64,000 nt of DNA from Dendronephthya gigantea (Eukaryota): NCBI RefSeq assembly GCF_004324835.1, contig NW_021163026.1, positions 2,163,271-2,227,270 on the forward strand, in the 5' to 3' direction. Made by a program: the position numbers and the translations under genes. Shown here in pieces: positions 31,502-54,900 of the stretch (the first letter of the stretch is position 1; each line of letters starts with the position of its first letter). The notes under the pieces are model-generated. The model did not search any database. It had not been told where the DNA came from and was given only the letters and a program-made list of their open reading frames with translations.

Positions 31502-34500
31502 ATGGCGGAAGCTGTAGGTATGTTTCGTAAACTTTGTTTGCTAAACTGTGTCAAAAAAAGGTGCGACTTTAAATAACACTAATGTGGCTTCTAGCCAATA
31601 TTAAACACTGTGTTTATGAGAAATGCAACGAATATAAGTGTTCTGCATTTTGATAAGTTTTAGTAAACGGTTTCCATATATAATTCGCATACTTGTTATG
31701 CTTGGATACCCCAGTCGCAATTAGTTTTGCATATTCATGAATCATGGCAACTCTTTGTGTCAATATAAAGAGGACTTGTGACCGCCAAAGTCTTCTCGTT
31801 TTATGCATGCATAATTCATAGTTATCTTAAAATAGTATCTTCTTCAAAAACACGGGTTAGTTGCTGCTCAGTCAAATGTAAAGAAATTGCATGGATTAAA
31901 GGGGTAAGGTTGGTGTTAGGATTAGTAGAGGGATTAGACTTACGTTTGAATCAAAGAATTAAGATTTCAAGGATTTATTTTTCAGTTAAATCCAAGTTTG
32001 GTCAGAGAGAACCCCCACTTACAAATCAGATTGTGAGCATATTGAATCGTTATCCTGATGGAGGGCAAATATTGAAGGTAATCAGCATTACCATTATTCA
32101 AGCAATCATTTAGCAGATTGAACATTCTTGTTTTCGAGAACCAGTTTACAATATTGACATGCACAAACAATTATTTTACCATGCTCTTAGGAATTGATTC
32201 AAAATGCTGATGACGCTGAAGCAAAGGAGGTTAAATTTCTATACGATGGCAGACAATTTGGTGTAAATAATCTTACTAGTAAACATCTGAAGGACTTCCA
32301 GGGACCTGCGCTTTATGCATTTAATGATGCAAAATTCAAAGAGAGCGATTGGGATGGGATACAAAATCTCATGAAGAGTAATAAAAAGGAAGATATTCTC
32401 AAAGTAGGAAGATTTGGTATTGGGTTCAACTCAGTGTATCACATCACAGGTTTGTGCAGATCATGAATTTAATTTGGTTGTTTGTTTGCACGTATTTTTT
32501 GCCTGCAATAAAGATATTAAGATAGTTCTAGTTTTGGAAGGACTGAAGTTGAGCAAAGATTCTAGCATGCATCTTTAGTCCTGATATTCATTTTTGCTAT
32601 CAATAACAAGCAGCTTATTGAGCTAGCTCCTGCATGTATAAAGAATATCAACATCTGCATTTGTCTTAAAATGATGCAAACAAACAAATGTGTTATTACT
32701 ACATTTAGTATTTCTTTTAAACTTTGATGGTAGTAATAGAATTGAATCACCTTGAATGCAACTTGTTAGATCTGCCAGGAATCGCAAGTGGGAAAAAAAT
32801 TGGATTTTTGGATCCACATAAACGATGTTTTGAAAAGGGGGAACCTGGAGTACAATATGAGGTTGATTCAAAATTACTGCGACAGGAACATCTTCTTCGA
32901 GATCAATTTGAGCCGTTCAAAGGAGTGTTTGGTTTTGATTTTTGCGAAGAATATCCCCATACTCTCTTTCGCTTTCCATTGCGAAAATGTCCGTCTGAAC
33001 TCTCACAGACAGAGTACACAAAGGAAAAAGTCGAGAAGCTTTTCAATTCGTTGCGCGAAGAAGCTCCAATCATTTTGTTGTTCATGAAACACATCCAACA
33101 CATCAGCGTTTATGAACGTTTGGATGAAAATGACACGGTCAAATGTCTCTTCGAAGTTGAGATTGCTCGTGAAACACGCGAAGTTGTTCAACAGGAAAGG
33201 CAGAAGATGTTTGAAAAAGCTAAACAAGCTCTTAGTCTTACAGTTACGGAGTCAAGCTGTGTCGTTGACATTTCTTTATCTTCTATGAATGGCTCGGGCC
33301 ACACGGATGAGTGTTTTAGATGGCTTGTAATCAACCAGATTGGCTTAGCTGAAAAAGATGAAAAGGTTGAAGAGCTTTCGAAGACTTTAAGTTTGCTTCC
33401 GTGGATTGGCTGTGCTGTTCCGCTTAACGAGAATGCCCAAAAGGAAGACAGCGGTCGGATTTTTTGTTCTTTACCACTTCCTCATGATGTCGACTGCAAG
33501 ACAGGCCTGCCAGTTTTGGTGCATGGTGCATTCGGAGTCACAGACAACAGACGGGGACTTCTGTGGCCCGGAAATGAATGTCAAAATAACGAAACTGCCG
33601 AGTGGAACGTGCTGTTGGTGAAGAAAATCCTGTCCTCCGTTTTCCGCAAAGTTTTAAAAGCAATAATTACAGATCATCCTGCCACTGGTCTGCACGACGT
33701 GGAGAGACGTGATCTTGTCTATAACACTTTGCCGAAATTAAGCAATGTTATTGGTCACTGGAAGGATGTACTGGATCCTCTATTTCATGAACTTAAGCAT
33801 CTCAACCTCTTTTTTACTCAATCATGCGGTCCTTCATCTTGGGTGACTCTGCAGGAAGGACTTCTTGATCAAATGAAAAAGGATGGCGTGTCTGATGAGA
33901 CGAGGGGAATTGTCCTCAAAACACTGTTACAGAATCATTCTATTATAACAGAACTTCCTGAGCATGTGAGCGAGATTGTTGAAAAATATTTCGGTGCTGA
34001 GAAACAAGATATTACTCCGGAAATTCTGAGAAATTTACTCCTGAGAACAAACTCGCTACAGACGGCATCCCGTAATGATAAACTCCGGTTACTGGAATAC
34101 GTGTTACATGATAACCCACAACCCCAAATGCTCACAGGAATCCCTCTTCTTCCTCTGTCATCTGGAGAATTCAAAAACTTCACTCACCATTCAAATCCTT
34201 CACAGTTGGTATTTGTGCCCAGCGACAACTGTAGCGAAGATTTACTTCCAAATATGCAAAACCATTTCCTAGACATGAATATTCCTGCAGAAACCCGTAA
34301 AAAGCTTGTTGAAATGGCGGCCTTGGATGAACCCACTGCAACACAAATGGTTTTACTCAGCCCAGATCTTGTCGTGTCATACTTACGACGCTGTCTTCCC
34401 GAAGAATGGTTCAATCCCAACCAAAATTTTGTTTCCTGGAAACATGATCATCCTAAACATCCACCAAAGAAATGGATCACAGATATTTGGCATTGGATCA

Positions 34501-37500
34501 ATGAAATCTTTGAAGAATCTCTTGAGAAGTTCGAAGGAATCCCGCTGATACCGTTTGAAATCGAATCGGAGGCTAAACTTGGCGTGCTTTCAAAAACCTC
34601 CAAGTTCATATTCAGTTCAGATGCTTCTCAGAATGTGCAATTGCCTCAGCAGATTGTGAAAGTTCTCCAAGCGTCAGGCTGCGTTGTCCTACCCTGTCAA
34701 CCGACATCCCCCCACGTGCGTCACCCCGATATCTGCTCTTACATTGCGTCTCCCGTCCCGACGGAAGTGATCCAGAAGCTCCTCAGCTCTTCGTGGAATT
34801 CTGCCAAAGAGTACATCGTGAATTGCCCAAGAAACGAATGGAAAACGATCCAAAATTTTTTTGCATCGGTGCAGATGTCGGAGGATCTTCGTGAATCGTA
34901 TGTTAACGCATTACGTGATCTGCCGTTGCTGGAGACACTTGGTGGAAAATACACAACCGCTGTTGTCGACGGTAGGAACCTTTGGGTTGCTTCGCCAGAC
35001 TTCAAACTTCCAGATGGTTTCGACTTTCGCAAAGCGGACCACATCATCTCATCTGCTGAATCTGAATCCGCTCAACTGGTTGGTTTGTTAAAATTAGTTC
35101 CTTGCAAGCCTGTAGATATTTTTTGCCATTTTCTGTTCCCGGACATTGAGACCCAGTCGATTTACAACCGCGAAGAAACAACTAAGGTCATGTTATGGCT
35201 TCTGGAAAGAATCTGCGATTTTAAGGATGATTATTTCCACGACAAAATGAAGAACTTATCGTTTGTAAGCACGCGAAATGGGGAACTTAGAAAGCCAAGT
35301 CAAATCTATAACCCAAATGATCCTCTTCTAAGGGATTTGTTCATTGGTGATGACTCGAAGTTTCCGTCGAAGGAATTTAGTGAACCGCGTGTGATAGGAA
35401 CGCTGACTGATTATGGGCTTCGAACACCAGACATGATAACTCCATCGGATCTCCCTGGAGCAGTTGAGACGGTCGCATCTTTAAAATACGAAGATTCCTT
35501 GAGCAAGGTGAAAGCGTTGATAGAAGTTTTACAACAGAATCCAAAGTTCTTACAAAAATCGATGTGACAACAAAGCTTGCTGGAATAGCGTGGCTTCCTC
35601 GCGCCAAGAAACACAAGAAAGGCTTCCCTTCGTTCATGCACAAGGAATGGTACAACACTGACATTATGTTTTATAAATCAGATGAAATATTTCGCGAGTC
35701 CCGCATGCTTCTCGTTGGAACTTCTGCTCCGATTCTTGGCGTTGACATTGAGAAAAGTCTTCAAGATGCATTGTGTATTAACAAAGAGGTAAATCTCGAT
35801 CAAGTGATCAAACATCTCAAAACATGTGTTCGCGTCTGGGATGAGAAAAAGAAATCAACTTCGCAATATATTGAAATGCTCAAAGAAATCTACGTGTATC
35901 TTTCGAAAAGGCCTTCACAAGAAGACGTCTCCCGTATTATTCTGCAACATTTTGCAGAATATGGAGAAAAATGGATATGGCACGGTGCGGGTTTCTGCGC
36001 ACCCGAACAACTCGCCCTGGAGAAAGATTTACCCTTTGAATTTCGACCTCCGCTTTTTCTGCTGCCCGAGGCTCTAAATGATGGGAAATCGCTGACGATT
36101 TTTTTTCGAAACCACGGGGTTCGTGAACAGTTTTCCAAAGAAGACATTATTTCCGTCTTGGTCGCCATTAAGAAGACATACGAGGAGACTGTACGTCCTA
36201 TTTCGCTGAAGGAGCAGGAAAAAGATTTAAAGTTTTGTCGTTCCGTTCTCGAGTGGTTGGTAAGTGATGGACAGAAGTTGGACGAAGATCTCAGAAGGAA
36301 GATATTTGTTCCAGTGCAAAAAGACAAGAAGTTAGTCTTAGAGGAATGTGAAAAAGGCACGTATTGCGATCAAGAATGGTTGAAACATGGAAAAAGTGAA
36401 CTTGATATTCCTGATGATATTCAACTGATCCACGATTCCATTACGACTAAAACAGCAATTCTGCTTGGAGTACCTTCACTAAGCTCCTGTCTGCTGTCGG
36501 CTGAGTGCGTTGAGTTTGAACAAACCGGACCCTACGAGCCGATCACAACAAGAATCAAGAATATTCTGAAAGAGTATAAAGAAGGTGTTGGTATTTTCAA
36601 AGAGCTTATTCAGAATGCGGATGACGCAGGCGCGGATACGGTCAAATTTTTGGTGGACTGGAGAACAGGGAAGATTGGCAGCTTATTCTCGCCTGATATG
36701 GCCCCAAGCCAAGGGCCTGCACTCTGGGCGTACAACAATGCTGTGTTCACTGATAAAGATTTTGAGAATATCAACAAGCTAGCTGGAGGAACGAAAGTGG
36801 AAGATCTTTCGAAGATTGGTCGTTTTGGGCTGGGTTTCAACGCTGTTTACCATCTTACTGACGTACCGAGTTTTATCAGTCGAAGCATCTTGTGTATTTT
36901 TGACCCAAATGTCAACCACATCTCAAACCACATTCGCGACAAGTCCCGTCCAGGAATCCGAATAGATCTTGCCAAGAACCCAAGGCCGTTGACAGCGTTC
37001 GCCGACCAGTTTTCCCTCTATAACGAAATCTTTGAATGCAAGACAACTCTGGATGATAAAGAGAAGTTCTCGTACCAAGGCACCTTATTCCGCTTTCCTT
37101 TTCGCACTGCGACTGAGGCAGAGAAGAGCGAGATGTGTCAGACTGTTTACAATCAAGTCGAAGTGAAAAGAATTGTAGATACTTTGCAGCGCAATGCATC
37201 CCTCATTCTTCTTTTTACACAAAATGTTAAGCGCGTTGAACTGTACGAACTTGCTGCTGAAGACTGCCCGCAAAACATGAAACTTATACTTTCTATCAAT
37301 AAAGAAGTACTTTCTACTAATAAAGAAATTTCCACCATTCCGGAGGTTGTGCAGGTATCTCCATACATTAAACGATGCTCCAACTGGTGGAATGAAAAGC
37401 AATCGTTGAGTGAAGCACCGTGGTGTTTGGAGCAGGTTGAAATCCGGATTGATAAGGAAGACCCAACCACAAATGAAACTGGAGCGTGCGACGTAAAGAC

Positions 37501-40500
37501 TTCTTCCTGGTTTGTGTCTTATTGTGTTGGAAAGGATCTTTCGATCAAACTTGCCAGGGAAGAAGGTGAAAAAGATGGTCTCTTGCCTCTCGCCGGTGCT
37601 GCTGCTCTCCTTCAAAGCAATTCAAATGATGATGCGATGATCGCTAAACAAGTTAATGGTGAAGCATTTTGCTTCTTGCCACTGTCCATTTCCACCGGAC
37701 TACCCGTCCATGTAAACAGTTCCTTTGCTGTTCGTTCGAATCGCGATGGAATCTGGGAAAAGACCACGGCTGAGGAAAACTTGGAATCTCGCTGGAACGA
37801 AACTCTTTTACAAGATGCGATACCCGAGGCATATTTCCAACTACTCCACGGAATGGTGAATTTATCGAAGAATAATTCCTTAACACAATTCGATCAGCGT
37901 TTCCATGATTTCTGGCCGCGTCTTGCCACGTCAAAAACGTCGTGGACCGCTCTCGTATCGAGTTTTTATACAAAGTTATTAGCACAAAATTTGAAGCTGT
38001 TTTGCAGCACTGGAAAGTGGATGGACATTAACGATGGTTTTATCTTAGACGATGAGTTGCGAAGTCATGATCACGACAGAGTCGTGAGAACGCTGAAATT
38101 TATCGAAATACACGTTTTTGATCTTCCATCAGATGTCGTTACCGCAATGAAAGACTCCGCTAGTGATTCTGTCCAAAATGTTCTTCAGAAGCAGACGTTG
38201 AACTTTGTATCATTCTTTGAGCTCCACTTGTTCCCTAAGTTAGAAGTAATCCCGGCTGATTTACGCAATCCCATTGTCCATGATGGGCTACGCTATCTCC
38301 TGGACGAGACAAAGCAAGGCTATCAGAAACTGAATAGTTTATACAAGAAAACCAAATGTATTCCGTGTTCTCCCGATGGTGAAAAGTTAGCTCGACCGTG
38401 CGATTTGATCAACCCGAATGACGAAAGTATTTCTAGGTTATACTCGCCCGAAGAAGGCAGGTTTCCTCATGGAAATCTCGATAATACACAAATGTTTGTA
38501 TTGGCCGAAAAACTTGGGATGGTTAAAGATCTTTTAAGTTGGGAAGAAATTCGTGGACGTGCGATGTCTATTGAGAAGCTAGCAGAGACGAACAAGGAAG
38601 CAGCTCTGCTACGCTCAAGGTATCTTGTCTATTATCTACGATGTAATATGGAGAGACTTAAACAGATGACAGATATTTCGCTTTGTCCTTCTCTTCAGAA
38701 AATAAATTTTTTACCGGTGCGTCTCACTGCCACAGAATCGTACACTTTGCCATGGAAAGGGGAGTCTTGTTCCACGCAGTTTCTGAGTCCTGGTGAACTG
38801 TTTTTGCCAGAAGATGATACCCTCATCGGCTCAGCCAGCTTGATCGTCGACGACACCGAAGAAAGCGGGTGTGGTTCACTGGAAGTTTTAAAGAGCGTTC
38901 TTGGTTTTTCTCGTCGCCCGAGCTGTCAACAAGTGTTTGAACAGTTGGATATTACCAGGAAATCACATGCGACCGACGAAATGAAAAATAGAGTGTGCAA
39001 ACGTGTTTACAAACATCTAAATGATGAGCTGGACGAGAATTCAGACGTAACTGAAAAACTTCAGAATTCTCCGTGGCTTTACCTTGAAGGAACTTTCGTA
39101 GAAAACAAGAAGATTGCAATGAGCTGGAATGGGTACGCCGTGCCTTTTCTGTACAGTGTTCCAGACAGAGACAAACAAGAGTATAAAAAACTCCTCAAAC
39201 TGGCAGGAATTAAGGAGTGCTTCACAGCCACCGATTTCATCGAAGCTCTAGATTTGCTCAGGGAATCCATGCAGGATACCCCTTTGTCACCAGAACATAT
39301 ACAACTTGTTGTGACGTTGATCAGGGAGCTAAGAGATCCAAGCGAGGCGGTTAGAAGACGTTTTGGTACAATACCATTACCTGACACAAGCGGTGTGTTA
39401 TACGACAGCAAAGATCTAACCATCCCAGAAAGTTTTGCAGTGAAATACAACAACAAAGGCGAGCTTTTCATTCATCAAGAGATAGTCCAAAACACTGCTC
39501 GCAAGCTTGGAGCAAAAGCCTTGCGTGCAAGACGAAGGGAGAAGTATGGTAACACAATGTCTATATCTTTTGGGCAATTTGAGAAACTAACGGATCGTAT
39601 AAAGAACATCTTAGAATCATACCCTTGTGATGCTGGAATCTTAAAGGAACTCGTTCAAAATGCAGACGATGCGAAGGCCACCGAAATTCAGTTCATCTAC
39701 GACAAACGAAAACTTCCTCACGAGCGAGTTCTTCAAAATCAAGCGAGCGAAATCCAAGGACCTGCGTTATGTGTTTACAATAACAAACAATTCAGCGAAG
39801 ATGATTTTAATGGAATCTGCAAACTTGGAATCGGGAGCAAACACGATGACCCTGCTAAAACTGGACAGTATGGAATTGGATTCAATGCCGTGTATCACTT
39901 AACGGACTGTCCTAGCTTTTTGTCCAACGATAGCACTCTTTGTATCCTTGATCCTCACTGTGAATACGCTCCTGAAGCTACTTTGGATGCACCTGGAGGA
40001 CGTTATGACAACATTGATAACGATTTTAGAGATATCTTCTCTGACACTGTAAGTGGTTATCTTAAGAATCTCGATCGTTTTCCTCTGAAAAATTCCACCA
40101 TGTTTCGACTTCCACTGCGAACAAGCGAACAAGCAGCTAAGTCTGAAGTATCGAGGATTGTTGCTACCGAAGAAATCATGACTTTACTAAAGAAATTTGA
40201 AGAAGAAGCGAAGAAATTGTTGCTTTTTCTCAATCATGTTAAGGAGATTGGTTTGTGGGAAATCGATGAGAATTCTGAGTTAAAACTCACATACTCGGTG
40301 AGTTCTAAACTTAAACCAAAAAGTGAGAAGAAATTACATGAGCTGCATGGTCACTTGCAAGACCACAAGAATTTAAAAACTCATGAGATTCTTATAAAGG
40401 ACACTACGTATAGCATCCATATTCAGGACACAGAGAGACTCCAGGAAAAATGGCTCATTCATCAAATTTTTGGCATCAGAGAAGAAGCAATGAGCGATGA

Positions 40501-43500
40501 ACAAACTCCAAACGTCTGTGATCTTGGCCTGTTCCCTCGTGGTGGAATTGCAGCGCTATTGTCGACGACGAATCGTCCAGATTTGGAAAAATATGTCGCG
40601 TACTGTTTTTTGCCTTTGCCTGTAACAACTTCGCTGCCCGTTCACGTCAATGGTCATTTTGCACTCGATGGATCACGACGAGATTTGTGGTGGGACCAGA
40701 GCAAGACTTGTCGGAAAACGAACTGGAATGGGTTCATGAAGGAACAAGTGCTTGGCCCTGCTTATGCATCATTGATCACGAAAATCAGAAAACATATTCC
40801 CTATTGTGAAAGAGAGTCAGAGAAGATCTTCTTCTCAAACGAAGACGAAGCAATAAAAGCCTTGGTTTGGTATCACAAATTATTTCCAGATCCTGAAAAA
40901 GATCCCGACTGGAATACTCTTGCCGTGGCTGTTTATAAGAGCTTAAAAGAGGCGCAAATTTTTCCAGTGGTCTCTCAATCACGTGGTGTTAACACAGCGA
41001 AGAAGCATCAATCTGATGAATGTGGGTCAGAGAAATCTTCTGGCACCAGAGAGGGTAGACGTGAAAATTCAGTTTTAATTGGTGGCCGTTATCGCAACGT
41101 GTCTAGCAAGCACGCTCCTCGCTTGTCACGGCATCGCGAAAAGGGAAGAAGATACAATTCGAAGAATGTGAAGATGGCAAGGTACGCTTTTGTTGCACAA
41201 AAACGATGTGAAATAGTGACAAAGTTTTCTATCGAGTGGCTGCCTCCAAACCTTGTCTACTTCACTGAAGAAAAAAAGCGAATCGAACAACAGGCTCTGT
41301 TGTTAACCGCACTCTTAGAGATCCGTATGCCAGTGTTATTATATACTCCAATGAGAATCTACAAAGCATTGAAGAAGTCTGAGGTTACAACCAATCTCCT
41401 TTCTCCGGAAAATGTCATCGATTTCATGTTGAAGTCGCAAGATGAAAGCTCCAGGTGTGTCATTGGAAAACTTCCTATCCAACTGGGGCAATCAAACATT
41501 CAAAACGAGTCTAATTTACGAAGTATTTTTCAATATTGCAAGTCGAAACTTGAGGAATTACCTTCAAATCTCGAAGGGCTGCCACTTCTGTTGACGGCTG
41601 ATAATATGTTGAGAGCGTTTACTGCGAACAGTCCCGTGTATTGTACAGAATTTATCGATTTGTTTCCTGACAAAGCTTCTAGGTTCGTTCATCTTCAATT
41701 TGTTCCGCTATTGTTATCATTTTGTGAAGTTGATGAAGCCGAACTTGGTATTATCCGTCATCTCACCATCACGTCGTTAGCTGAAGAATTTATGCCGGAC
41801 GTCTTCCGTGACAAATTACCGTTGGGTGAGACAAAACATGTCCCATGGAGCTACCCAGAAAATGGCGTCCTCTCAAAGGAATGGTTCAGAATTTTATGGA
41901 AGTTCTTGAAAACTGTCGAACGATCGGAAAGAGAAGATACTATTCCACTCCTTGGTAAATATCCGATTATACCAACCAAAGATGGCAAGCTAGCAACGGT
42001 TGATAACTCCAAATCTGTGTTGGCAATGACTATATTCAAGACGAAGTCTTTGAATTCACTCCAGAGGCCGGTTGCAAAAATTCTGGAAGACCTATCATGT
42101 CCGTTTTTAGATGAATCCATTACAGAATATGGTTTGCCTGTTGTCCTTCCATTAGTCGCTCACCCAGACAGCGAATCAGATGTACTTCATGTTCTCGACT
42201 ATATGAATTCGACTGGAATACTCGACTTGAGCAAATTTGACGACGAAAAAATTTTCACTCTTTTGAAATTTTTTCAGGCTGATTGCGGAAACGAGACGTC
42301 TATGGGAAAAGCTAAAACATTACCGTTCTACAAAGGCGTTGATGGCAATTATTATTCGCTGTTGTTGCATTCCTCATACATTAAAATTCCAGCTCGCTTA
42401 CCAGAAGATGGCATAAGAGAACTACAAAGTATTTATGGAACGAGAGTGTTGCTGTTTCCCTCATCACTACCGTCAGAGTTGAATCAATTGTTCGCGGCTC
42501 TTGGGATTGAGGTGAACTGCCGTGTTTCTGAGTTTTACATCAAATACGTGTTGCCAAATTTTTCATTATTATCTCGTGAATGCCAAATAAAATTTTTAAC
42601 TTGCATCAGAGGAACGCTGCGCTTCGATTTGATCGAAGAATTGAAATGGACAAGATGTATTCCTGACCAAACTGGAAACCTTTGCTTTGCTTCCAGATAT
42701 CTCAATCCACACAACGAATTATTTCAAGCGATGTTTAAGACTGATGCAGACGTTTTTCCAGCATCACCGTTCAATGAAATGAAGTGGCTCGAATTCCTTC
42801 TCCAAATAGGAATGAAGGAAAAATGTGACCAGGAACAGTTCATTGAATTTGCAAATAACGTGGAGCAGTCTGCACAGAAATTGACCGAATACGATGAAAA
42901 CATTATAGCTCAGTCCAAAGCACTCGTCAAGTACCTACTAGGAAATGAACGCGATGGGACCTGGTCATTCTACGGTATTCCTGAAATAAAGTTTATCGTC
43001 CCTAAGGAAATCGAAGAAGAGCTCTCTTCTATTCATCCCCAGCATCGTGCAGATGGAATTCTGGAATTTGTTTCATATCGTGATTCAGTGCCGTGGGACC
43101 TTAGACACCTAATTTGGACAAGTTATAAACTTCTACCAGATTGGGCTTTTCCTCGTCATAATGAGAGTCTTATTTCAGCGTTAGGAATAACTTCAGAGCC
43201 ACCTCTTAATGCTGTGTTTCAGCACATAGAAACCATGTCCAATTGTGCTTCGAAGATAATCGTGTCGGGTAGTACTTTGTCGGAAAAGCTTAAGGAAGTG
43301 TTTAAAACAACCTACGAATTCCTGGTGAACCTGATGAAACACTGCGCCAAAGAACCTTCCTCAGACTGTAACGAGAAGTGTCAGAAGATTGGAGAGTGTT
43401 TAAAATCTGTTGCTTGTATTCTGCTCAACGAAGAACGATGTTTGGTGAGAGGTGAAAAACTTTCAATTGAAGACACAAAAGACAAATTGAAACCGCATTT

Positions 43501-46446
43501 TTATAAAATACCACGCGACTATGCTCCGTTTGATCATCTCCTGAAAAGACTTGGCGCTACGGAGAAGATCTCCGCTTCACAAATGGCCAGTGTTCTCAAG
43601 TCTATCAAAGATTCTTCCACAGATGAAAAGATGAATTCTGAAGAAGAGGAAAAGGCGTGCTTTGCTACTTCTGTTTTGTTCAAATCACTCCTTGACGATA
43701 AAGAGACCGAAGCTGATTCAAGACTGGCAAATTGCGAGGAGCTTCTTTTGCCAAGCATGGCTAAACGACTCATAAGCTCCGACAAGTTGGTTTGTAAAAT
43801 GCAGCCCCGACTCCGCGAGTCAGTAGCGAAGCAAGGCTACGAGATTTTGATGCCTTTTGAAAAATGCGGAATGAAACGTGAGTTGGAAAACGACTATCTT
43901 CAAGCTCTTCCTAATCGTCTCCGGCCAACGCCGTTAAGCGAACTGGTACGCGAAGAGTTACATCCGCTGTGTAAGAAGGACATGAGTTGTACTTTATGCC
44001 TGGCGATGGATTACCATTCGTTTATCCAGAAGGTTCATTTTACTTTTGCGATCCTCGCAATTTGAGCGCGGTATCATACGGCTCTTGAAGCACCAGAAGG
44101 AATTGACAGAGCTTGATGAAAAAGACAGAGAAAGAGCCGCACGATTTACTTCAGCTAAGGTTAGTCGTCATGTTTTTCGAATTTTCTAATTCAAAAGTTC
44201 AGACACAAACCACGACAGCTTATTGTAGAATACTACCTACACTGGACCACCACGTTTGAGATCTCTTTCTCAGGTAGTTCAGACACAAACCACGACAGCT
44301 TATTGTAGAATACTACCTACACTAGACCACCACGTTTGAGATACCTTTTTCATGTAGTTCAGACACAAACCACGACAGCTTATTGTAGAATACTACCTAC
44401 ACTGGGCCACCACGTTTGAGATATCTTTCTCAGGTAGTTCAGACACAAACCACGACAGCTTATTGTAGAATACTACCTACACTGGGCCACCACGTTTGAG
44501 ATATCTTTCTCAGGTAGTTCAGACACAAACCACGACAGCTTATTGTAGAATACTACCTACACTCGACCACCACGTTTGAGATATCTTTTTCAGGTAGTTA
44601 AGACACAAACCACGACAGCTTATTGTAGAATACTACCTACACTGGACCACCACGTTTGAGATATCTTTTTCAGGTAGTTCAGAAACAAACCACGACAGCT
44701 TTTGTGGAATAAATAACACTTCTTTTCTTTGCATAAGTCTCTCTATTTCTATATTAAAGCTGACTACGATCAAATGTATGCAACAAGTTCAAATCCACCT
44801 TGTTAACGTATTGAAGGAAGAACCATTGCCAGGAAGCTCAGTCGACAGATCGTGTCATGTAGAAAAGGAAGAGAATTCCTGGACACTGTATATTCAACAC
44901 GAATTTGGAGGCAGAAAGAACCACGCCATCTTCGCGAAAGCTGTAAATGAAATCATGGACAGATGTTTAGAACAAACTGCCGAGTTAAGCGATATGCTCT
45001 CTTGCGACTCGCCTTCCCAGATACCAGGAGTACTTAACGACCATGACGTTGCGATTGATTATAACGAAGAAAATGAACAGTTTGGTCTTCCTGTGCCGGA
45101 TGTTTACCACTATCTCATTATTCAAAAACCACTCTGTAATTACGAGGAAGGAGCTCGGGTTGCCTATGACGAGGACGAAGGTAATAAAATATGAAATATC
45201 CAGTTAATAGTTTGAAAATCACTTATGTAAACACTGCATCTATTGTAATTTTTAAGATGTTTGTTAGTTTGTATCGCTTGAAGAAAGTGTGTAAGGTGGT
45301 GTTCCTCAGTTCTGAAGCCTTTCCCAATCTTTTAATGGTGGGTGAATATTATTTACAACCGAAATATTTACTAAGCACTTTTCTCTTTTGGTTTTTCCAC
45401 CAGGTTGCGCTGGAAATTGGAAAGAAAGCGAGCTAAAGGAGACATCGATTAGATACAAGTTCGTAAAGATCAACAGTCGTGCCAATGCTATTGACAAAGA
45501 TGCCAATGAATTCGACTTCAAAGCTCGGTACAAAATTGATCTCGGCAGCAAAACTGACTATAAAATAGTGAGTGTCCTTGATCTTTATAGTTACAAACAG
45601 AACGAGATGGGAAGTCTCGTTCCAGACGATGAAGATGACGAAAAAGTAAAAGTGGATGTTTTGGTAGAAAAATCTAAAATCACTCGGGCACTTAAACTTG
45701 CCAAGAACAACTTGGACTCATTAACACAGCGAGAAAAGGTGATAAGGCGTCTTTTCCTACATTGGCTTCGTTGTAAGGACTCTGAAACTGCAGATGAGAT
45801 AACCAAATTCATAGAAAATGAAGTCACAAGGCTGAAGATTCTGTGTCTGGAAGAAACGCGAGCCTTTTCAAGTTACTGGAGAAGTTATGGCAAACGTGAG
45901 AGGACGACATATAGAAGCTACAATCGTTGGACGTCGGTATGCGACAGTCCTGGCGGTTACCATGACAGCGGCAGTAATCGCGGTTACCATGACAGCGGCA
46001 GTCATGGTGGTCATTATGATCCTTGGGATTACGTAAGCCCCGATGCAAAGGAAGCAGAACGATGGATCAAGCAATCGCAAGCAGATTTGAATGTCGCCAC
46101 GTGGTTGCTCGACAAATCCTTTTCACAAGTATGTTATATGAGCCAGCAATGTGTGGAGAAAGTTTTGAAAGGTGTTCTGTACGCCAAGTGTGGAATACCA
46201 CGAGTGGAATTACGTACCCACCATATATACCGGCTTGTAAATGTATGCCGTGGCCTCGACGAAGCCCCAAGCGAAGCCCTGGATCGAGCTAGTAGCGTTG
46301 GAGGTTACTACCTTCCAACACGTTATCCTGACAATCAACCGCAGTATCGAGTTCCCGCTGAAGAATACACCGAGGAACAAGCCAAGCAAGCGTTAGATGT
46401 TGCTGTAACAATTTTTGCAGTTCTTGAAAAATTTGCCTTCAACTAA
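31502..46446 (+). CDS. SACS: Sacsin-like giant gene with three HATPase-like repeats, a degenerate J domain and a C-terminal HEPN domain (gene span; two internal frame discontinuities)
   Basis: Exons: 31502-31517 (MAEAV-), 31986-32077 ([31 protein letters not shown]), 32191-32449 ([16 protein letters not shown]...[14 protein letters not shown]-), a giant exon 32770-44065, then 44760-45180 and 45404-46446. Three repeat cores of the sacsin repeating-region type are present: [28 protein letters not shown] (32191-), [31 protein letters not shown] (about 36600), and [31 protein letters not shown] (about 39650). Each is followed by a ...FRFPLR... segment. The total is about 4400 aa, comparable to vertebrate sacsin. 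Confidence 0.8.
32770..44065 (+). CDS. SACS: Sacsin-like giant coding exon (about 11.3 kb), read as two ORFs split by an apparent 1-nt frame discontinuity at 35550-35567
   Basis: The acceptor gttag|ATCTGCC joins YHIT to [17 protein letters not shown] (sacsin has [21 protein letters not shown]). Frame 0 runs open from 32770 to the TGA at 35565-35567. Frame 2 runs open from 35468 to 44065 and contains HATPase-like repeats 2 and 3. The two frames overlap only across 35468-35567. The true 3' end of this exon is uncertain; see the findings. Confidence 0.75.
44198..44700. repeat. Tandem repeat of about 80 bp and roughly 6.5 units, immediately downstream of the sacsin giant ORF
   Basis: The unit is gttcagacacaaaccacgacagcttattgtagaatactacctacactggaccaccacgtttgagatatctttctcaggta. 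Confidence 0.9.
45404..46446 (+). CDS. SACS: Sacsin-like C-terminal exon with a J-domain-like region lacking HPD and a HEPN domain
   Basis: The acceptor ccaccag|GTTGCGC is in phase with the donor GACGAAG|GTAATA at 45180. It reads ...[25 protein letters not shown]... (vertebrate sacsin has [21 protein letters not shown]). It continues with [36 protein letters not shown], where the J-domain position has LRCKD in place of HPDKN. The C-terminus reads [20 protein letters not shown]...[14 protein letters not shown]...[14 protein letters not shown], a HEPN fold with the TRYPD signature of sacsin's C-terminus. Confidence 0.8.
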
Positions 46447-47392: not shown

Positions 47393-48556
47393 ATGTCGAT
47401 TCGTCTTTACGATTCAAAACTCGAAGAAGATGGATTGCGCACTTATGTATTTATCGTCGAGAAATTTTCTTCAATTGGTTCCGAAATCTACTCAAAACCT
47501 TTTCACTTCGCTGGTCATCGTTGGAAAATCCAGGCTGGGATTAAAGAAAAGCACTTTGGAGCGTTTTTACGCTGGTTGAGCGGTGGGGAACACAGTAAGG
47601 GTGTGAAATGCAAGGTGAACTTCACGTTGGGCGTTTTAAACAAGGGGGAGATTTCAAAGTCAATTCGTCGCGGGAATATGACAGATAAGCCCGACGAATT
47701 TACAAAATCAGGATGTGGTATTGGCTGGGGAAAGTTGGCCTCTCTTGAAGATCTCGAGAGTGATCGTAATTTCATAACAGACGATACGATCTTGGTTGAA
47801 CTGCATTGTCGTTTAGACGAGACGACATTTGAGAACAGGTTACCGTGCGCGGCGAAAGCTGGGGATAAGTTCATAAAGAGCTCAATGTTTTCATTCTGCA
47901 ATAGTCGTTGGTCCATTATCATGTTTCCTAATGGACCGCCAAGTAAGAATGACGTCCCGCCTCAAAACGACAACGTCGCTGTTTATCTGCATTGCGAAGA
48001 CGTCGGATTGCTTCGTTACAAGGTCGGCTTCTCGTTTCACGCTCGTAGCAGGCTCGCAAAGCAACGGCAAATCACGTATAACTTTTTCGATACTTCTCAC
48101 GATACGTCTTGCAACGCTTTTGGTATCGAGCAATTTATGCCTTCAAAGGAACTCAAAAGAATCGCAAAGAATGGAAAGGTTAAGATCAAAGTCAAAATCA
48201 AATTCATGGAACCATACTTCTATCTTGCGCTTGATCCAGCGAACTTGAAGAACACAGAGGGAAAGATGTGTACACGTGAGGACTTGGTGGATCAATGTAA
48301 TAACCCTCTTGCCTTGACCCTCGAAACGTCCCGAGACGAGAAGCTCGTTTTCAAATTGAAATATGATCCGCAATTTGAGAACGAGGCTCTGGATGAGATG
48401 CCGTATTTTAAGAAGATTTTTTGGCGAGCTGTTCTCAACTCGTTCGAGGATGATTCCGAAACGGTCGTCGTGTCGTCGTCGTCGGAAGCCGGGAAGAGTT
48501 CGTTTTGTTACAGCGAAGCCGAGTGCTCGATTGCATCCAGTTTAGATATCAGAAAG
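47393..48556 (+). CDS. First exon of the MATH-OAS gene, encoding tandem MATH/TRAF-like domains (388 codons)
   Basis: The ORF is 394 aa, with an in-frame donor AAG|GTGGGA at 48557. Two repeated beta-sandwich-like segments each carry the F-x-W-x-I core motifs typical of MATH domains. Confidence 0.75.
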
Positions 48557-51338
48557 GTGGGAACCATTATTATCTAGTGACATTGATTGAGTGAGTGTTG
48601 ACGAGAATCTGAAAGCAAGAGTTTCCATTTTTGATAAATTCTTCAGCTCTCGTGACCTAGTCAAAGGAAGACAAGAATTGCCAGAGAGTTGAATTAATAG
48701 CACGTAAAAAATGCTATTAGCTATCAACTTTTATCAAAATTTCACTATTTCGAAAGTCAAAAAGCTTGAGAAGCACTATCATTGACTCATATAAACTTTC
48801 TTTCTTTGTCTGCTGGCTTGCCTTTTCTTTTCTAATGATCAGCGTTTCTTGAATAAACTTTTATTACATTTCCTCCACAGATTGAAGAACGAGGTAGTGT
48901 GTTCCTGGACGAAGAAGATATGCTGAGTGTTCATGTTTTTATCGACGATGCAAATCTTGTTTATGATCCATTGCTTGATCCTCTCACGAAACAGAGCGTC
49001 TCAAAGTTGAGGGAAGAGAAAGACCAAAGATTGAGGAATTTGGAACGAGAATGGTAAGGTATCACTTGGTCTATAAACCTGTTTTTATACAAGAACTTCA
49101 GTATTGATGAAATCTGAACTAAACAAACGCTTATACGTTCTATACCTCTAACAATTCTTTCTAATGCATGTAGGAAGCTTCTCTTACAAATTTAATGAAT
49201 ACTCTCATGAATCAAACTAAGTTGACCGAGCATTCTTTTGTGTGTTCCGGTTAGATTTGAAAGGATTTATATAATTTTAAAACAGTGAAAGTTTCATCGA
49301 AAACACAATGGCGGAGAAAGATGTGATCATATCAGAACAGGAGGAGCTTTTGGAAGAACGCGATTGTATTATCAGTAAACAAGAGGGACATATCGCTGGC
49401 TTGAAAACAGAAATGGAAGACAACGATAAATATTTGAGTGAACTTGTTGACGGTAAAGATGAGGTAAGAGTTTGGACTTGAGAGGCAAGTTCTTTCGACC
49501 TTCTTCAATAAGTATAGTAGATAACAGAACTTGGTTCAATTCTAGTCGTTAAAAAAGGCTTAAACTACAACGAAGTAATATCTTCTGATTATAGACTGAC
49601 CACTTTTTTGTTTTATCATTGTGAAGGGTGAAGCGAGCAAACTCCTCAAACGTAGTCTTCGACAATTGATCAAAAATGCGAAACCGTCAAAAGACGAAAT
49701 AAAAGCACAGAAAACGGTCGAGAAGAAACTCAGCAAATTCCTGAAGGTTTGTCAACAAATAGATCAATAGTTCCGTTAATAGAGTAGTTTTGAATACAAG
49801 CTGGTCTGATGACAAATATGTTTTAGAAAAAGCTACCATTTAACATCAGTCGTGTGTCAGCTGTGGGTTCTTATGGACAGAAAACCACGTTAAAAGGATT
49901 GAGAGAGTGTGGTCTTGCCATTGCTATTCAAGGTAAGATTTGTCAGGAAGAAACGAGTCATTTTGAAGTGTAAAACCTCCATTTTTGGTTCCCTACGGGA
50001 ATAGTTTAGTACAAATGTTATTGAGGATTCAAAGTTAGTTCAGTCTTCTCTTTTACCCAGATCTTCCTCGCACAGAACATGATAGCTGGCTACCAACGAT
50101 CGTGGGCACCATTAAGACATTACTCAATCAACGTGATAAAAGCGACAGCACGATACCACCATGTTCTGAGTTCAACACCACATCATCGACCGTCAATTTC
50201 AGATGTGCTGACGTCGATGTTGAACTCACACCAATCAATGACTGGGAAAATAATGGTGGCTTCCAGGCCCTTTATCAAATGAGCCTGAAACAGAGCGCTG
50301 ACGTGCAAGTTCAGTGAGTATTGGGAACGATATTAAGTATCTCAATATAAACCTGAAGTGATACCGTTTTATACTTTTGCGTGTAAGTGTTAGTGTGAAA
50401 AGAATTATTTTTTTTATCATCTTTTACAGTTACAACAACAACGTATGTGAACTTCAAGCAGCATTTATCGCCAATCAACCTGAGAAGGTAAATCAGTTGT
50501 TCTCCAATGATGTCTGTGGACAAAGCGTTAAATTAAACACTTTATTTTCCTCGTTCATTCCAGTGTAAAGATTTGATACGAGTTGTGAAGAAGTGGAGCC
50601 GTGATATTGAATGGGATCCTGGGACCAAACCAAGCGACTATCTTCTGTCATTACTCGTTGTTCAAGCCTACGAGATCGTGCAACCGTAAGTAGGAAAGAA
50701 TAAAATTCCAAAGGCAATGGGGCTCGGAACCGCGCGCCTGCTAATAGAGTCCGGGAAAATTTTGAAATATAGGTCTCTGAAATCGCCGCAAATGCCTCTC
50801 AATTTAAGGATTAATAGAAAATAATAGAAGTATGTAAAGTTTTCAGCATGTTTGGCGCTCATATACAAATATTAAACAATATAACCTTGCTTTGGTTATA
50901 ATGTCAAATATTTTGACATCGATAACCACGCTGTTTTAATGGTCAGAACCATTGGAAGACACTTGAACCATTCTTTCTTGTACTGATAGAGACATGGTCG
51001 AGCAGTCGTCGGCAGATCTCGACGTGTTGTTGGAGATGGCTGATATAGTAAATGACAGTAACCTCGAGTGAGTATGTAGCGGACGGAACGAATACGAACT
51101 GTCAATTAAACTTGTCAATCCATTATCTTCCTAATTTTGGTTTACATTTAGATTATCCTGGGACACGGACAACTACATCTCTGCGCAGTATCCGCGGCAG
51201 TTCTTCCCCAAACCCTTCACACAACCTATCGTCCAGGACCCCGCTATCCCCACCCACAACGTGGCCGAGTCAGGCATGGAGGATTGGAAAGAATTTCGAA
51301 AAAGGTTCAAGGAATGGGTTATCTCATTGACTCCTTGA
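47393..51338 (+). CDS. Novel-architecture gene fusing two MATH/TRAF-like domains to an OAS-like (2'-5'-oligoadenylate synthetase family) nucleotidyltransferase, 10 coding exons
   Basis: Exons: 47393-48556, 48881-49053, 49286-49463, 49627-49746, 49827-49932, 50061-50313, 50430-50487, 50564-50685, 50990-51067, 51152-51338. Phases are continuous and total 2439 nt, or 812 aa plus a stop. All donors are GT(A/G)AGT-like, including two CA|GTGAGT and GA|GTGAGT sites that the ORF track reads as stops. MATH-like segments are LRTYVFIVEKFSSIGSEIYSKPFHFAGHRWKIQAG...FGAFLRW...GIGWGKLASLEDLE...DDTILVELHC and SSMFSFCNSRWSIIMFPNG...NVAVYLHCED... OAS-like segments are VGSYGQKTTLKGLRECGLAIAIQ (the NTase GS motif), CKDLIRVVKKWSRDIEWDPGTKPSDYLLSLLVVQAYE (OAS1 has LIRLVKHWYQ...PPQYALELLTVYAWE), and LSWDTDNYISAQYPRQFFPKPFTQPIVQDPAIPTHNVAESGMEDWKEFRKRFKEW (OAS1 has IYWTKYYDF..PIIEKYLRRQLTKPRPVILDPAEPTGDV...W..L..EA). 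Confidence 0.75.
49827..49932 (+). CDS. MATH-OAS gene exon 5, carrying the nucleotidyltransferase GS motif
   Basis: It reads KKLPFNISRVSAVGSYGQKTTLKGLRECGLAIAIQ-G. Aligned to the OAS1 motif [22 protein letters not shown], the [DE]h[DE]h positions read E-C-G, so the second metal-binding acidic residue appears to be replaced by Gly. Confidence 0.65.
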
Positions 51339-51906: not shown

Positions 51907-54900
51907 ATGTTTTCCAGTCCTTCGGTGGATAAAGAGAATGTTTTAGAAGAGGTAAATTTGTATTTTGCTGCCTTAGAAAGTTGAATTGAAAGATCGCTAT
52001 TTTAATGTGTGCATTGTTGATTGTTTTCATTATTTCTGTACTCTTTGATATATGCCTCTGATACTGGATGGTTTTGATAATTTTACCACGGTTAAACACT
52101 AGCAATACAGTGAATAGAAGAAATGAGTAAAATCATCTGGCATTAAAATACGAAATATATAAAATGGAGCAGTGTTAGAGTTATAAAGATATGGAGCATT
52201 GTTTGGCTGATGGCACAGCCATTGCACTAAGATGCATCTGCTTACTACCATGTTTTTTGCTTTTGTATAGATTTTTGCTACAACACCTGGCAGAGCACCT
52301 CTGAAGACTGTCCAAAAGGGAAGCATTGCAGCCGTGGGGACACCCTTGGGGATAGCGAAGAGAACACCAAGGCCAGGGTCTGCACATGCCACAACACCTA
52401 GTTTCCGTAGGCTGGCAAGAAGATTGAAACGACAGAGTGTACCGTTTGCTTTATCAAAGCCAGTGTCAATATTTGACAACAATGGAAAAGGTATCTTCAC
52501 AGGAAATCCTGTCTTTGAGGAAGGCGGACAACAATTGAAAAGAAATGGACCAGGGTTGAATGAAATGATACAAGACAAAGTCTCTGAAACTGTTATCAAG
52601 ATTAGGGAGGTATATCAATTAATATAATTATATAATTATCATTAGCAAACCATCATTATTATCACCAGTGATCATTACCATATGCCGCCCATCATCATAA
52701 ACAAAATCATATATTCTATAGAGGTATGAGGCAACCTTAGCTCAGAAACAACATGATCTTGATGAAAAGAATATCATGATCTCACAGCTACAATCAGAAA
52801 TCAGCCTTCTAAAACACTCTCACAATGACAGCCAGACACAGTCAGAAAAAGTAAACCAGGATTTGAGCATTTCAAACTTTGTGAATGAAGTAATCTCAAA
52901 GGCTGCTCAAGAGATCCAGAATGAAGATTCCACAGCAGAAACCTGCGACCTGCAACCTTCCTCTGTTGATTTAATACAAAATACCTCACCAGTAAAGCTT
53001 AGAGGTTGCTCAACTGCAATCACACCAACAAAATTGGTTTCTGCAGGAACATCTCCAATAAAACTTAAACTAACAGAAAACGAGACATCCATGACGCCCG
53101 TCTTGAAGATCCATGAAGCAACTTCGGTAACCCCGGTTGGAACAGCAGACGCAATGCTGGCAACCTCTCCTGCTTGTCTGAAAGATGCAGGAATTTCCAC
53201 ATCACCTTTCTGCCTGCTGGACTCAACAACAAACACATCTCATAACTGTTCACTCAACTCAGTGCAAGAGACCTCATCCACGAGCACCAAATCTGATGGA
53301 GAACACAAACCATATCCTGGATCTAAAGGCGGTAGCTCCATTCCAGATGGGAATGATACCGATCCATCCTTCAATTGTGCAGAAGAAACAGCAGTAGCTG
53401 CACCTATAAAACCGGAGCAAGATTTTGGAAGCCTGAATGTATCCTCACAGAGAGAATCCTGTGGGACCCCACTCTCTTCAATACATATAACAGATGCAGA
53501 TAATGGTCACGCCTTTTCCGACAATACCCTAAAGGAAATTGGAACATCAATGACACCCGTCACCCTAATACACAAACACACACTGGTGTCTCCAGTGCAA
53601 ACATCAAATGTATCAATATCCACCTCGCCCCTTGTTGCTGCTCTCCATCCAGAAATCATTACAAGCCTGCCACTCAGTCAACTCCGATCCGAACTAGAAT
53701 CAGCCGCAATCAGCAATGAGCTTCTGAGAAGCGAATGCGACGAGCTTAGCGCAAAGATTGAACTACTGCAGTCATCTGTCGACAAGGCAAGATCTGAGGC
53801 TGAGAGGAAATGTAGCTCAATGCAAAATGTGGTAGATTCTCTTACAAAAAAACTTGAAGAAGCTTTGGAGCTCAATGAGGATATGGAAAGGAAGAAGGTG
53901 AAATCGTTTATAAAATCACAATACAATACAGTTTTATTACTTTTCAAGTACTTTTATAATGGTACATGATTGAGAAAATCATAATCCCTTGGGTCAGCTC
54001 TATAACCTAGCCTATTGTACAACTGGCTAGAGTTTAGCAATTAAACTGCTGAACCGAGCTCGCCAGCCTGCCCCACTGCTAAACTCCAACTGTTCTCATT
54101 ATCATTACAGCCTTTGAACGCTGAGGAATATGACAAAACCATCAGCAGTCTGCAGAAAGATATCTTGTTGAAGGAGAAACAGATGACATTTTACATCAAG
54201 GTACTCGTGAGCTAAACTAGGTGTTGCTTGAAAAACATATGAAAACAAAAACCATGCATGTTATGATAGTTTCATAGGCCAGCACTGGAAATCGTGAACA
54301 CTTGAGCAAGCTGATTATGCAGTAATTTTTTGCATTGTATGTGTTAATTAAACAGAAAGCATCTGAAGCAGATAACTTACAAAAAGACTTGCGAAGAATG
54401 TATGCAAAATACAATGCACAGGTATGAATCATTGATACTGTTTAGTTAATATAATATACTATGCAACTCTATCTGTTTGTAGAGGTCCAGTAAGGATCAT
54501 CTCTTATTGATCCAGTGTTACTACAGGAGCAAACCTAAACTAAACCAACTTTATTTATACTGGATAGCTCTATCAGTTCTAAACTGTTCTTCCTAGAGGT
54601 CCAGTAAGGATCATCTCTTATTGATCCAGTGTTACTACAGAAGGAAACCTAAACTAAACTAACTTTATTTATACTGGATAGCTCTATCAGTTCTAAACTG
54701 TTCTTCCTAGAGGTCCAGTAAGGATCATCTCTTATTGATCCAGTGTTACTACAGGAGGAAACCTAAACTAAACTAACTTTATTTATACTGGATAGCTCTA
54801 TCAGTTCTAAACTGTTCTTCCTAGAGGTCCAGTAAGGATCATCTCTTATTGATCCAGTGTTACTACAGGAGGAAACCTAAACTAAACTAACTTTATTTAT

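What the first reader, a model, noticed from the sequence alone, without database searches (positions are those of the whole stretch)
35545..35567. Apparent single-nucleotide frame break inside the sacsin giant exon at an A5 run
Frame 0 is open from 32770 to 35567 and frame 2 is open from 35468 to 44065. Both carry sacsin homology, and there is no room for an intron. Adding one A to caaaaatcg (35553-35557) gives ...[22 protein letters not shown]... as one continuous ORF of about 3780 codons. The cause is either a homopolymer indel in the assembly, a real pseudogenising mutation, or programmed frameshifting. Assembly error seems most likely.
Basis: seen in the sequence. Interest (0 to 1): 0.5.

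Follow-up and report, generated by a model that had tools for sequence, protein, structure and literature searches.

The report
Two frame breaks in sacsin-like gene
A giant sacsin-like gene in what is probably a cnidarian genome is interrupted by two one-base-type insertion/deletion defects, not one; it is otherwise intact and conserved, so this is most likely sequencing/assembly error or else a very young broken allele, and it is ordinary.

Summary
The frame break is real in the sequence. One + strand frame is open 32721-35564 (exon starts at 32770; TGA at 35565-67). Another is open 35468-44062. Both carry Pfam Sacsin domains. Five homologous loci or proteins read straight through the site, which rules out an intron. 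The lesion lies within 35554-35562. Three repairs fit equally well: +A in the A5 run, +G in TCG|GAT, or -2 nt. The missing base therefore need not be an A.

At 44032-33 the window has one extra G compared with L001, L002 and L004. The last 10 codons of the "3780-codon ORF" are out of frame. The true exon continues in the original frame to a donor at 44159/44160, then into two intact 3' exons ending in a HEPN domain. With both repairs the giant exon is 3797 open codons.

There are no in-frame stops. dN/dS against a homologue is 0.12-0.16 on both sides. An intact orthologue in the same gene order exists (L004, 107x coverage). Any real inactivation is therefore very recent (<0.3% neutral divergence).

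I found no slippery heptamer, no downstream structure and no conservation of the shift, so programmed frameshifting is rejected.

My estimate is consensus error about 0.6 and young loss-of-function allele about 0.3. Only reads can decide. Interest is low.

The parts
31986..32077 (+). Upstream coding exon (..[30 protein letters not shown]), the start of the first sacsin repeat. The exon carrying the start codon lies further upstream and was not found.
   Evidence: tblastn of full-length sacsins P0027, P0010 and P0033 at 63-64% identity. Acceptor TTTATTTTTCAG| and donor AAG|GTAATC.
32191..32449 (+). Coding exon with the N-terminal half of the first Sacsin (Hsp90-like ATPase) domain: ELIQNADDA...[14 protein letters not shown].
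   Evidence: tblastn. Donor ACAG|GTTTGT. It supplies Pfam SACS profile positions 1-110, which are missing from the giant exon.
32770..35561 (+). Giant exon, segment 1, reading frame pos%3==0. It carries the rest of sacsin repeat 1.
   Evidence: Acceptor CTTGTTAG|AT at 32769/32770. Open frame. PF25794 E=3e-21. 58-59% aa identity to L001 and P0156.
35554..35562 (+). Frame break 1: the interval AAAAATCGA, within which 1 nt is missing or 2 nt are extra. It includes the A5 run at 35554-58.
   Evidence: Homology follows the upstream frame through FLQK and the downstream frame from DVTT. DNA alignments A1 and A3 show 2 extra nt against L001-L004.
35565..35567 (+). Premature TGA reached in the original frame as a result of break 1.
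35562..44032 (+). Giant exon, segment 2 (8.47 kb), reading frame pos%3==2. It carries sacsin repeats 2 and 3.
   Evidence: Open frame 35468-44062. PF25794 E=5e-163 with two full domains. 64-66% aa identity to P0008 and P0156.
44032..44033 (+). Frame break 2: GG where the homologues have one base, so one nucleotide is extra.
   Evidence: Window CAGAAGGTTCATT against L002 CAGAA-GTTCATC, L001 CAGAA-ATTCATC and L004 AAAAA-GTTTATC. tblastn switches frame at 44028-44032 with no gap in protein or DNA.
44033..44065 (+).
44034..44159 (+). Giant exon, segment 3, back in frame pos%3==0: [42 protein letters not shown], ending at donor AAG|GTTAGT.
   Evidence: 72% identity to P0156 and conserved in P0008, L001 and P0011. 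Donor coordinates.
44160..44759 (+). Intron of 600 nt, phase 0, containing an 80-bp tandem repeat array at 44196-44711.
   Evidence: GT..AG boundaries and frame continuity. Tandem Repeats Finder: 6.5 copies, 95% matches.
44760..45180 (+). Coding exon ([16 protein letters not shown]...DEDE), intact.
   Evidence: 39% identity to P0011 residues 3778-3911. Splice sites.
45404..46446 (+). Last coding exon: degenerate J-like region (HWLRCKDS at 45745-83), then a HEPN domain and TAA. Intact.
   Evidence: PF05168 HEPN E=1.3e-17. 61% identity to the L004 HEPN ORF. Alignment to P0011. Coordinates.

Best explanation
The window holds a complete sacsin-like gene that is conserved in gene order and has been kept by selection. 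The host is probably an anthozoan cnidarian. The gene has at least 5 coding exons, an 11,390-nt giant exon, three Hsp90-like sacsin repeats and a C-terminal HEPN domain. As written, its giant exon carries two independent small indels. At 35554-35562 one base is missing (or two are extra). At 44032-33 one G is extra. Read literally, translation stops at 35565-67 after repeat 1. I think both lesions are most likely consensus (assembly or polishing) errors at short homopolymers (A5 or GG; G to GG), and that the organism's real gene is one open reading frame. Shown here: the two breaks, where they are, continuity of homology across them, integrity of everything else, and the absence of recoding signals. 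Inferred: that the cause is technical and not mutational.
For: Both breaks are in-frame in four homologous loci. With both repaired, the giant exon is 3797 codons with no stop. All splice sites and both 3' exons are intact and phase-compatible. The lesions are indels only. A random substitution would make a stop 4.3% of the time, and 9-18 disabling events are expected per 1% neutral divergence, so finding no others caps any real decay at about 0.2-0.3% divergence. dN/dS against L001 is 0.16 upstream and 0.12 downstream of break 1. The window lineage shows no excess of unique changes at otherwise invariant sites. The syntenic orthologue L004 (107x coverage) is one intact 3778-aa ORF followed by the HEPN ORF and the same MATH-domain neighbour (82% aa identity). 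The same kind of defect is seen in a low-coverage homologous contig: L001 (6.6x) has one extra A in an A-run, and removing it yields a 3827-codon ORF, while its close relatives are intact there. Break 1 touches a homopolymer of at least 5 nt, which only 7.6% of 9-nt intervals in this CDS do. My rough Bayesian weighing over plausible assembly error rates favours error by about 2:1. This is my own estimate, not a tool result.
Against: No reads are available, and the genome is absent from every searchable collection, so the cause is untested. Two errors in 11.4 kb imply an indel error rate near 1e-4, which is too high for a good HiFi assembly. About 7.5 kb of other coding sequence in the window (eIF3c exons, MATH, LIM, BTB, a 397-aa ORF and the gene's own small exons) shows no frame break. 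The 12 A/T runs of 6 nt or more inside the CDS are all correct. The homopolymer length spectrum of the window looks like that of the HiFi contigs. Real pseudogenes do occur in this family: L002, at 56x coverage, has a hairpin insertion, several frameshifts and stops.
Confidence: 0.58

Rival explanations
1. Both indels (or one of them) are real. The assembled haplotype would then be a very young loss-of-function allele or nascent pseudogene of the sacsin-like gene. Translation would stop at 35565-67, giving a protein of about 1,050 residues with repeat 1 only. The mRNA would be a target of nonsense-mediated decay, because the stop lies far upstream of two exon junctions. The second indel would have accumulated neutrally on the already dead haplotype.
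For: The lesions are concentrated in this gene, while about 7.5 kb of neighbouring coding sequence is clean. Under uniform error the chance that both fall here is about 0.36. Short homopolymers are also hotspots for real replication slippage. The family does produce pseudogenes (L002). The gene evolves fast compared with its neighbour: 64% against 82% aa identity to L004. Two frameshifts and no stop fits neutral decay of about 0.05-0.3% divergence. In human SACS, single-base frameshifts in the giant exon are the classical null alleles, for example c.8844delT (PMC8745260).
Against: The gene is conserved in gene order, with an intact orthologue and long-term dN/dS of 0.12-0.16. A real loss would have to fall in a very narrow recent time window. 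There is no relaxed-constraint signal. Every splice site and the 3' exons are intact.
Confidence: 0.33
2. Programmed recoding. Ribosomes would shift -1 at CAA AAA TCG, with tRNA-Lys slipping on A_AAA, and shift +1 again at AAG G TTC, so the full protein would be made from the sequence as written.
For: The needed shift at break 1 is -1, and an A_AAA P-site slip would give exactly KIDVTT. The two breaks have opposite sign, so they cancel arithmetically.
Against: There is no X_XXY_YYZ heptamer in the zero frame. The 102 nt downstream fold worse than shuffled sequence (z=+2.04, 199 of 200 shuffles fold at least as well). There is no significant Rfam match (one chance-level hit, E=0.28). All four homologous loci, including the syntenic orthologue, are in frame at both sites, so nothing is conserved. 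Break 2 has no known +1 signal: no stop and no hungry codon. An A5 run is too short for transcriptional slippage (established knowledge).
Confidence: 0.02
3. A short spliceosomal intron removes the break. The best candidate is 68 nt, 35508-35575, with donor AAG|GTGAAA and acceptor ACAACAAAG|.
For: GT..AG pairs of length 3k+2 that span the break do exist. This genome does have short introns, for example 75 nt in eIF3c and 113 nt in this gene.
Against: Every candidate removes at least 10 residues that align to homologues in which the region is plainly coding. The candidate acceptors are purine-rich, unlike the real ones in this window: TTTGTGTAG, GCTCTTAG, CTTGTTAG. It would not explain break 2, where homology has no gap at all.
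Confidence: 0.02

Closest known systems
Vertebrate SACS (sacsin), the ARSACS gene
   Same: Nearly the whole protein is encoded by one giant coding exon (11.4 kb here; human exon 10 is described as the longest vertebrate exon, PMC8745260). It has three repeated Hsp90-like Sacsin domains (PF25794) and a C-terminal HEPN domain. Single-base frameshifts in the giant exon are the classical way this gene is inactivated in humans (c.8844delT, PMC8745260).
   Different: This is an invertebrate homologue, probably cnidarian (best named eIF3c match is Oculina patagonica at 81%). It is only about 28-30% identical to most sacsins of about 4,000-4,600 aa in the representative library; whether any of those is vertebrate is unknown. 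The HPD motif of the J domain is replaced by HWLRCKDS, and the orthologue L004 shares this. No ubiquitin-like N-terminus was found.
Residual indel errors at short homopolymers in long-read assemblies
   Same: The lesions are plus or minus one base at or next to a homopolymer (A5 or GG; G to GG), they are indels only, and the ORF is otherwise perfect. A homologous 6.6x contig (L001) shows the same type of defect at an A-run, and a 2x contig (L003) is broken into many ORFs.
   Different: The sequencing technology and coverage of the window are unknown. The longer runs in the same CDS are all correct, and neighbouring genes are clean.
Decayed sacsin-like pseudogene (L002, ENA ERZ25073789, 56x coverage)
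   Same: It belongs to the same gene family and has the same exon layout. It also has frame breaks inside the giant exon.
   Different: L002 has about six frameshifts, in-frame stops, a deletion and a 183-nt hairpin (foldback) insertion. The window copy has only two one-base lesions and nothing else.

Membership tests
Sacsin family | Repeated Sacsin (SRR/SIRPT, Hsp90-like ATPase) domains | tested here: met
   PF25794: E=3e-21 (partial; completed by exon 32191-32449) and E=5e-163 with two full copies. The internal repeats align with each other.
Sacsin family | C-terminal HEPN domain | tested here: met
   PF05168 E=1.3e-17 in the last exon, 45404-46443.
Sacsin family | J domain with HPD motif upstream of HEPN | tested here: not met
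   No DnaJ hit in Pfam. Where P0011 has QWHPDKNP, the window has HWLRCKDS and L004 has HWFRCKDS. This is a lineage feature and not decay.
Sacsin family | N-terminal ubiquitin-like domain | not tested
   The start-codon exon was not located. Close homologues begin only 5-6 residues before FGQ.
Sacsin family | Giant single coding exon | tested here: met
   Exon 32770-44159, 11,390 nt.
Programmed -1 ribosomal frameshift site | Slippery heptamer X_XXY_YYZ in the zero frame | tested here: not met
   The zero-frame codons are TTA CAA AAA TCG ATG.
Programmed -1 ribosomal frameshift site | Stable stem-loop or pseudoknot 5-9 nt downstream | tested here: not met
   MFE -15.4 kcal/mol against a shuffle mean of -22.1, z=+2.04. 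No significant Rfam match; one chance-level hit at E=0.28.
Programmed -1 ribosomal frameshift site | The frame shift is conserved in orthologues | tested here: not met
   L001-L004 are all in frame at the site.
Spliceosomal intron | GT..AG with a pyrimidine-rich acceptor, and removal that preserves homology | tested here: not met
Pseudogene (unitary, decayed) | Multiple disabling lesions including stops, and relaxed constraint | tested here: inconclusive
   Two frameshifts, no stops, no other indels. dN/dS is 0.12-0.16, but dS is saturated, so this reflects long-term history only. No excess of unique changes.

The most novel reading that the evidence does not exclude
The DNA is correct as written and the gene is still expressed. 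Either two opposite-sign recoding events (-1 at A_AAA_TCG, +1 at AAG_G_TTC) would bracket the 8.47-kb middle segment, or the gene would make a deliberately truncated protein with only repeat 1.
Probability: 0.02. Interest if true: 0.65.

Novelty: not a real feature. Interest (0 to 1): 0.12.

Why it matters
It matters mainly for annotation. A gene caller would split or truncate a sacsin-like gene of about 4,400 codons. If the indels prove real, the locus would be a very young null allele of a conserved gene with a giant exon. That is the same lesion type that causes human ARSACS. It would be of modest population-genetic interest but would not be a new mechanism.

Tried and rejected
1. Programmed frameshifting: no heptamer, no downstream structure, no significant Rfam match (one chance-level hit), and no conservation of the shift.

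2. Intron: I enumerated 4,947 GT..AG candidates of the right length class. The shortest ones remove conserved residues and have purine-rich acceptors.

3. Chimeric join of paralogues at the breaks: the identity profile in 100-aa steps against three homologues changes smoothly and identically, tracking domain conservation and not the breaks.

4. Gene on the opposite strand: only ORFs of 176 aa or fewer, with no significant Pfam match (weak sub-threshold hits only, E>=0.04).

5. Homopolymer length spectrum as a marker of sequencing technology: it cannot be told apart from that of the HiFi contigs.

6. Finding the same species elsewhere, to compare alleles:
- protein searches gave nothing above 64% identity;
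- an exact DNA pattern allowing the repaired alleles gave no match in JGI metagenomes;
- a related-loci scan found nothing;
- exact look-ups of the two neighbouring ORFs were not on record.

7. Deciding which base is missing at break 1: the homologues disagree, because the site lies in a loop of variable length.

8. The literature search for sacsin-like gene expansions in invertebrates was uninformative.

Full report
**Observation**

The sequence at 35540-35567 reads TCCAAAGTTCTTACAAAAATCGATGTGA. On the + strand, the frame whose codons start at positions divisible by 3 is open from 32721 to 35564 and ends at TGA 35565-67. The frame one base behind it is open from 35468 to 44062. The two open stretches overlap by 97 nt.

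Both ORFs match the Pfam Sacsin domain PF25794. The upstream ORF matches from profile position 111 onward (E=3e-21). The downstream ORF contains two full copies (E=5e-163).

Inserting one A gives a 3781-codon open frame.

**What surrounds it**

The window is eukaryotic.
- It carries eIF3c exons at about 16.5-21.2 kb. Their best named match is the coral Oculina patagonica at 81%.
- It also carries a LIM-domain ORF, the sacsin-like gene, a MATH-domain gene at 47393-48574, and a BTB ORF on the other strand.

The sacsin-like gene has these parts:
- small exons at 31986-32077 and 32191-32449, which hold the start of the first ATPase-like domain;
- a giant exon from 32770;
- a 600-nt intron at 44160-44759, which contains an 80-bp tandem array;
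- an exon at 44760-45180;
- a last exon at 45404-46443 with a HEPN domain (E=1.3e-17).

**Continuity across the break**

Two ENA contigs carry homologues. They are L001 (6.6x coverage, 58-64% aa identity) and L002 (56x). An exhaustive profile-free search with P0001 found 1,847 relatives. Among them, P0008 is a single 3778-aa ORF that aligns with the repaired window protein from residue 23 to 3763 at 64% identity.

All of these read straight through the break, as do 27 more distant sacsins. The gene's own repeats 2 and 3 also align across it. No intron is there.

The GT..AG candidates of the right length class all delete conserved residues. They also have purine-rich acceptors, unlike the real acceptors in this window.

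**Where the lesion is**

Homology follows the upstream frame through FLQK and the downstream frame from DVTT. This confines the lesion to 35554-35562. In DNA alignments the window has two extra bases relative to L001, L002, L003 and L004.

Three repairs are equally good:
- +A in the A-run gives KIDVTT, which resembles RISLVS in P0008.
- +G in TCG|GAT gives KSDVTT, which resembles SDLT in P0001, P0004, P0006 and P0007.
- Removing 2 nt matches the length of three of the four loci.

The site lies in a loop whose length varies by 0-17 residues across the family, so the choice cannot be resolved. The A-run is a candidate and not a proven culprit.

**A second break**

Aligning long homologues to the 3' end showed that P0156, P0011, P0008, L001 and L002 continue past ...SFIQK with FIL(V/L)LRSSQFERG... 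In the window this continuation lies in the original frame (pos%3==0) and not in the frame of the 8.6-kb ORF.

The DNA alignments show one extra base. The window has CAGAAGGTTCATT, against CAGAA-GTTCATC in L002, CAGAA-ATTCATC in L001 and AAAAA-GTTTATC in L004. The GG is at 44032-33.

The true exon runs on to the donor AAG|GTTAGT at 44159/44160. It joins the next exon in phase 0, and that exon joins the HEPN exon in phase 1.

The giant exon thus consists of three segments in frames 0, 2 and 0. The first break removes one base (or adds two), and the second adds one. With both repaired, the exon is 3797 open codons.

**Is the gene otherwise alive?**

- There are no in-frame stops and no further frame changes.
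- All splice sites are canonical.
- dN/dS against L001 is 0.16 upstream and 0.12 downstream of break 1. dS is saturated, so this reflects long-term history only.
- At sites otherwise invariant across six relatives the window has 29 unique changes, against 19, 10 and 15 for the others. This fits its position as the deepest branch of the four.
- In this CDS 4.3% of random substitutions would create a stop. Together with indels, 9-18 disabling events are expected per 1% neutral divergence. The absence of others therefore caps any real decay at about 0.2-0.3% divergence.
- L004 (107x coverage) is the syntenic orthologue. It has an upstream Sacsin-domain exon, an intact 3778-aa giant ORF and a HEPN ORF, followed by a MATH gene that is 82% identical to the window's.
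- The degenerate J-like motif HWLRCKDS is shared with L004, so it is a lineage trait and not decay.

**Recoding**

The shift needed at break 1 is -1. Several tests argue against programmed frameshifting:
- There is no X_XXY_YYZ heptamer in the zero frame.
- The 102 nt downstream fold less stably than shuffled sequence (z=+2.04).
- Rfam finds nothing relevant.
- No orthologue shares the shift.
- A second event of opposite sign would be required at a site with no known +1 signal.

The opposite strand carries only short ORFs with no significant family match, only weak sub-threshold hits.

**Error or mutation?**

The tools cannot settle this. The genome is absent from all searchable collections.

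Evidence for error:
- The lesions are indels only, at short homopolymers, in a conserved gene that is intact in its orthologue.
- L001, at 6.6x coverage, has the same kind of defect: A5 has become A6. Removing the extra A gives a 3827-codon ORF, and close relatives are intact at that position.
- L003, at 2x coverage, is fragmented into many ORFs.

Evidence for real lesions:
- Two errors in 11.4 kb imply an error rate near 1e-4.
- About 7.5 kb of other coding sequence in the window is clean.
- The longer homopolymers in the same CDS are correct.
- The family does contain true pseudogenes. L002 has a 183-nt hairpin insertion, about six frameshifts and stops at 56x coverage.

I weighed these over plausible assembly error rates and over the frequency of loss-of-function alleles. 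This is my own rough estimate. It gives consensus error about 0.6, real young null allele about 0.3, and everything else under 0.05.

**Comparison with what is known**

By the tests made here this is a sacsin-family gene. It has repeated Sacsin domains, a HEPN domain and a giant exon. Its J domain lacks the HPD motif, and its N-terminus is unresolved.

In human SACS, single-base frameshifts in the giant exon are the classical null mutations (PMC8745260). Neither reading of the window involves a new mechanism.

**Verdict**

The finding is real in the sequence but ordinary. The main addition from this stage is that there are two breaks and not one, so a single-base repair does not restore the gene.

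Noticed in passing
window 44196-44711: An 80-bp tandem repeat array (6.5 copies, 95% matches, no indels) fills most of the 600-nt intron between the giant exon and the next exon. In the more distant homologue P0011 the whole region is one uninterrupted ORF with no intron.
   Followed up: partly
window 45745-45783: The J-domain signature is degenerate. The window has HWLRCKDS where P0011 has QWHPDKNP. The orthologue L004 shares the loss (HWFRCKDS), so this clade of sacsin-like proteins probably cannot stimulate Hsp70 through an HPD motif.
   Followed up: partly
L001 13220-13233: The homologous contig L001 (6.6x coverage) has its own single frame break: an extra A in CTGGAAAAAAGAT, where the window has CTGGAGAAAGAT. 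Removing the extra A gives a 3827-codon ORF. P0004 and P0007 are intact at that position.
   Followed up: yes
L002 9833-10015: A 183-nt near-perfect hairpin (arms of 90 nt, 86% complementary, 3 nt apart) is inserted in the coding sequence of the L002 sacsin-like pseudogene. It looks like a foldback or MITE-type element. L002 also has about six frameshifts and in-frame stops at 56x coverage.
   Followed up: partly
window 47393-48574 and L004 19907-21148: Gene order is conserved. A single-exon MATH-domain gene follows the sacsin-like gene in both the window and L004. It is 82% identical in protein, against 64% for the sacsin-like gene, so the sacsin-like gene evolves much faster than its neighbour.
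   Followed up: yes
P0156 (4572 aa, same 90% cluster as P0007): This homologue appears to carry an extra internal copy of a sacsin repeat. Residues around 2254-2370 and 3000-3116 both match the same window exons, and 2910-4507 re-aligns to window 39284-44032. Repeat number therefore varies within the clade.
   Followed up: no
window 16904-17197: A tandemly repeated stretch (it translates as the reiterated ...[10 protein letters not shown]...) lies in an intron of the eIF3c gene. Introns in this gene can be as short as 75 nt (18758-18832).
   Followed up: no
window 52776-53966: An intact 397-aa ATG-to-stop ORF with no significant Pfam family, only a weak coiled-coil-like LPP hit at E=8e-4. Its identity is unknown.
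   Followed up: no
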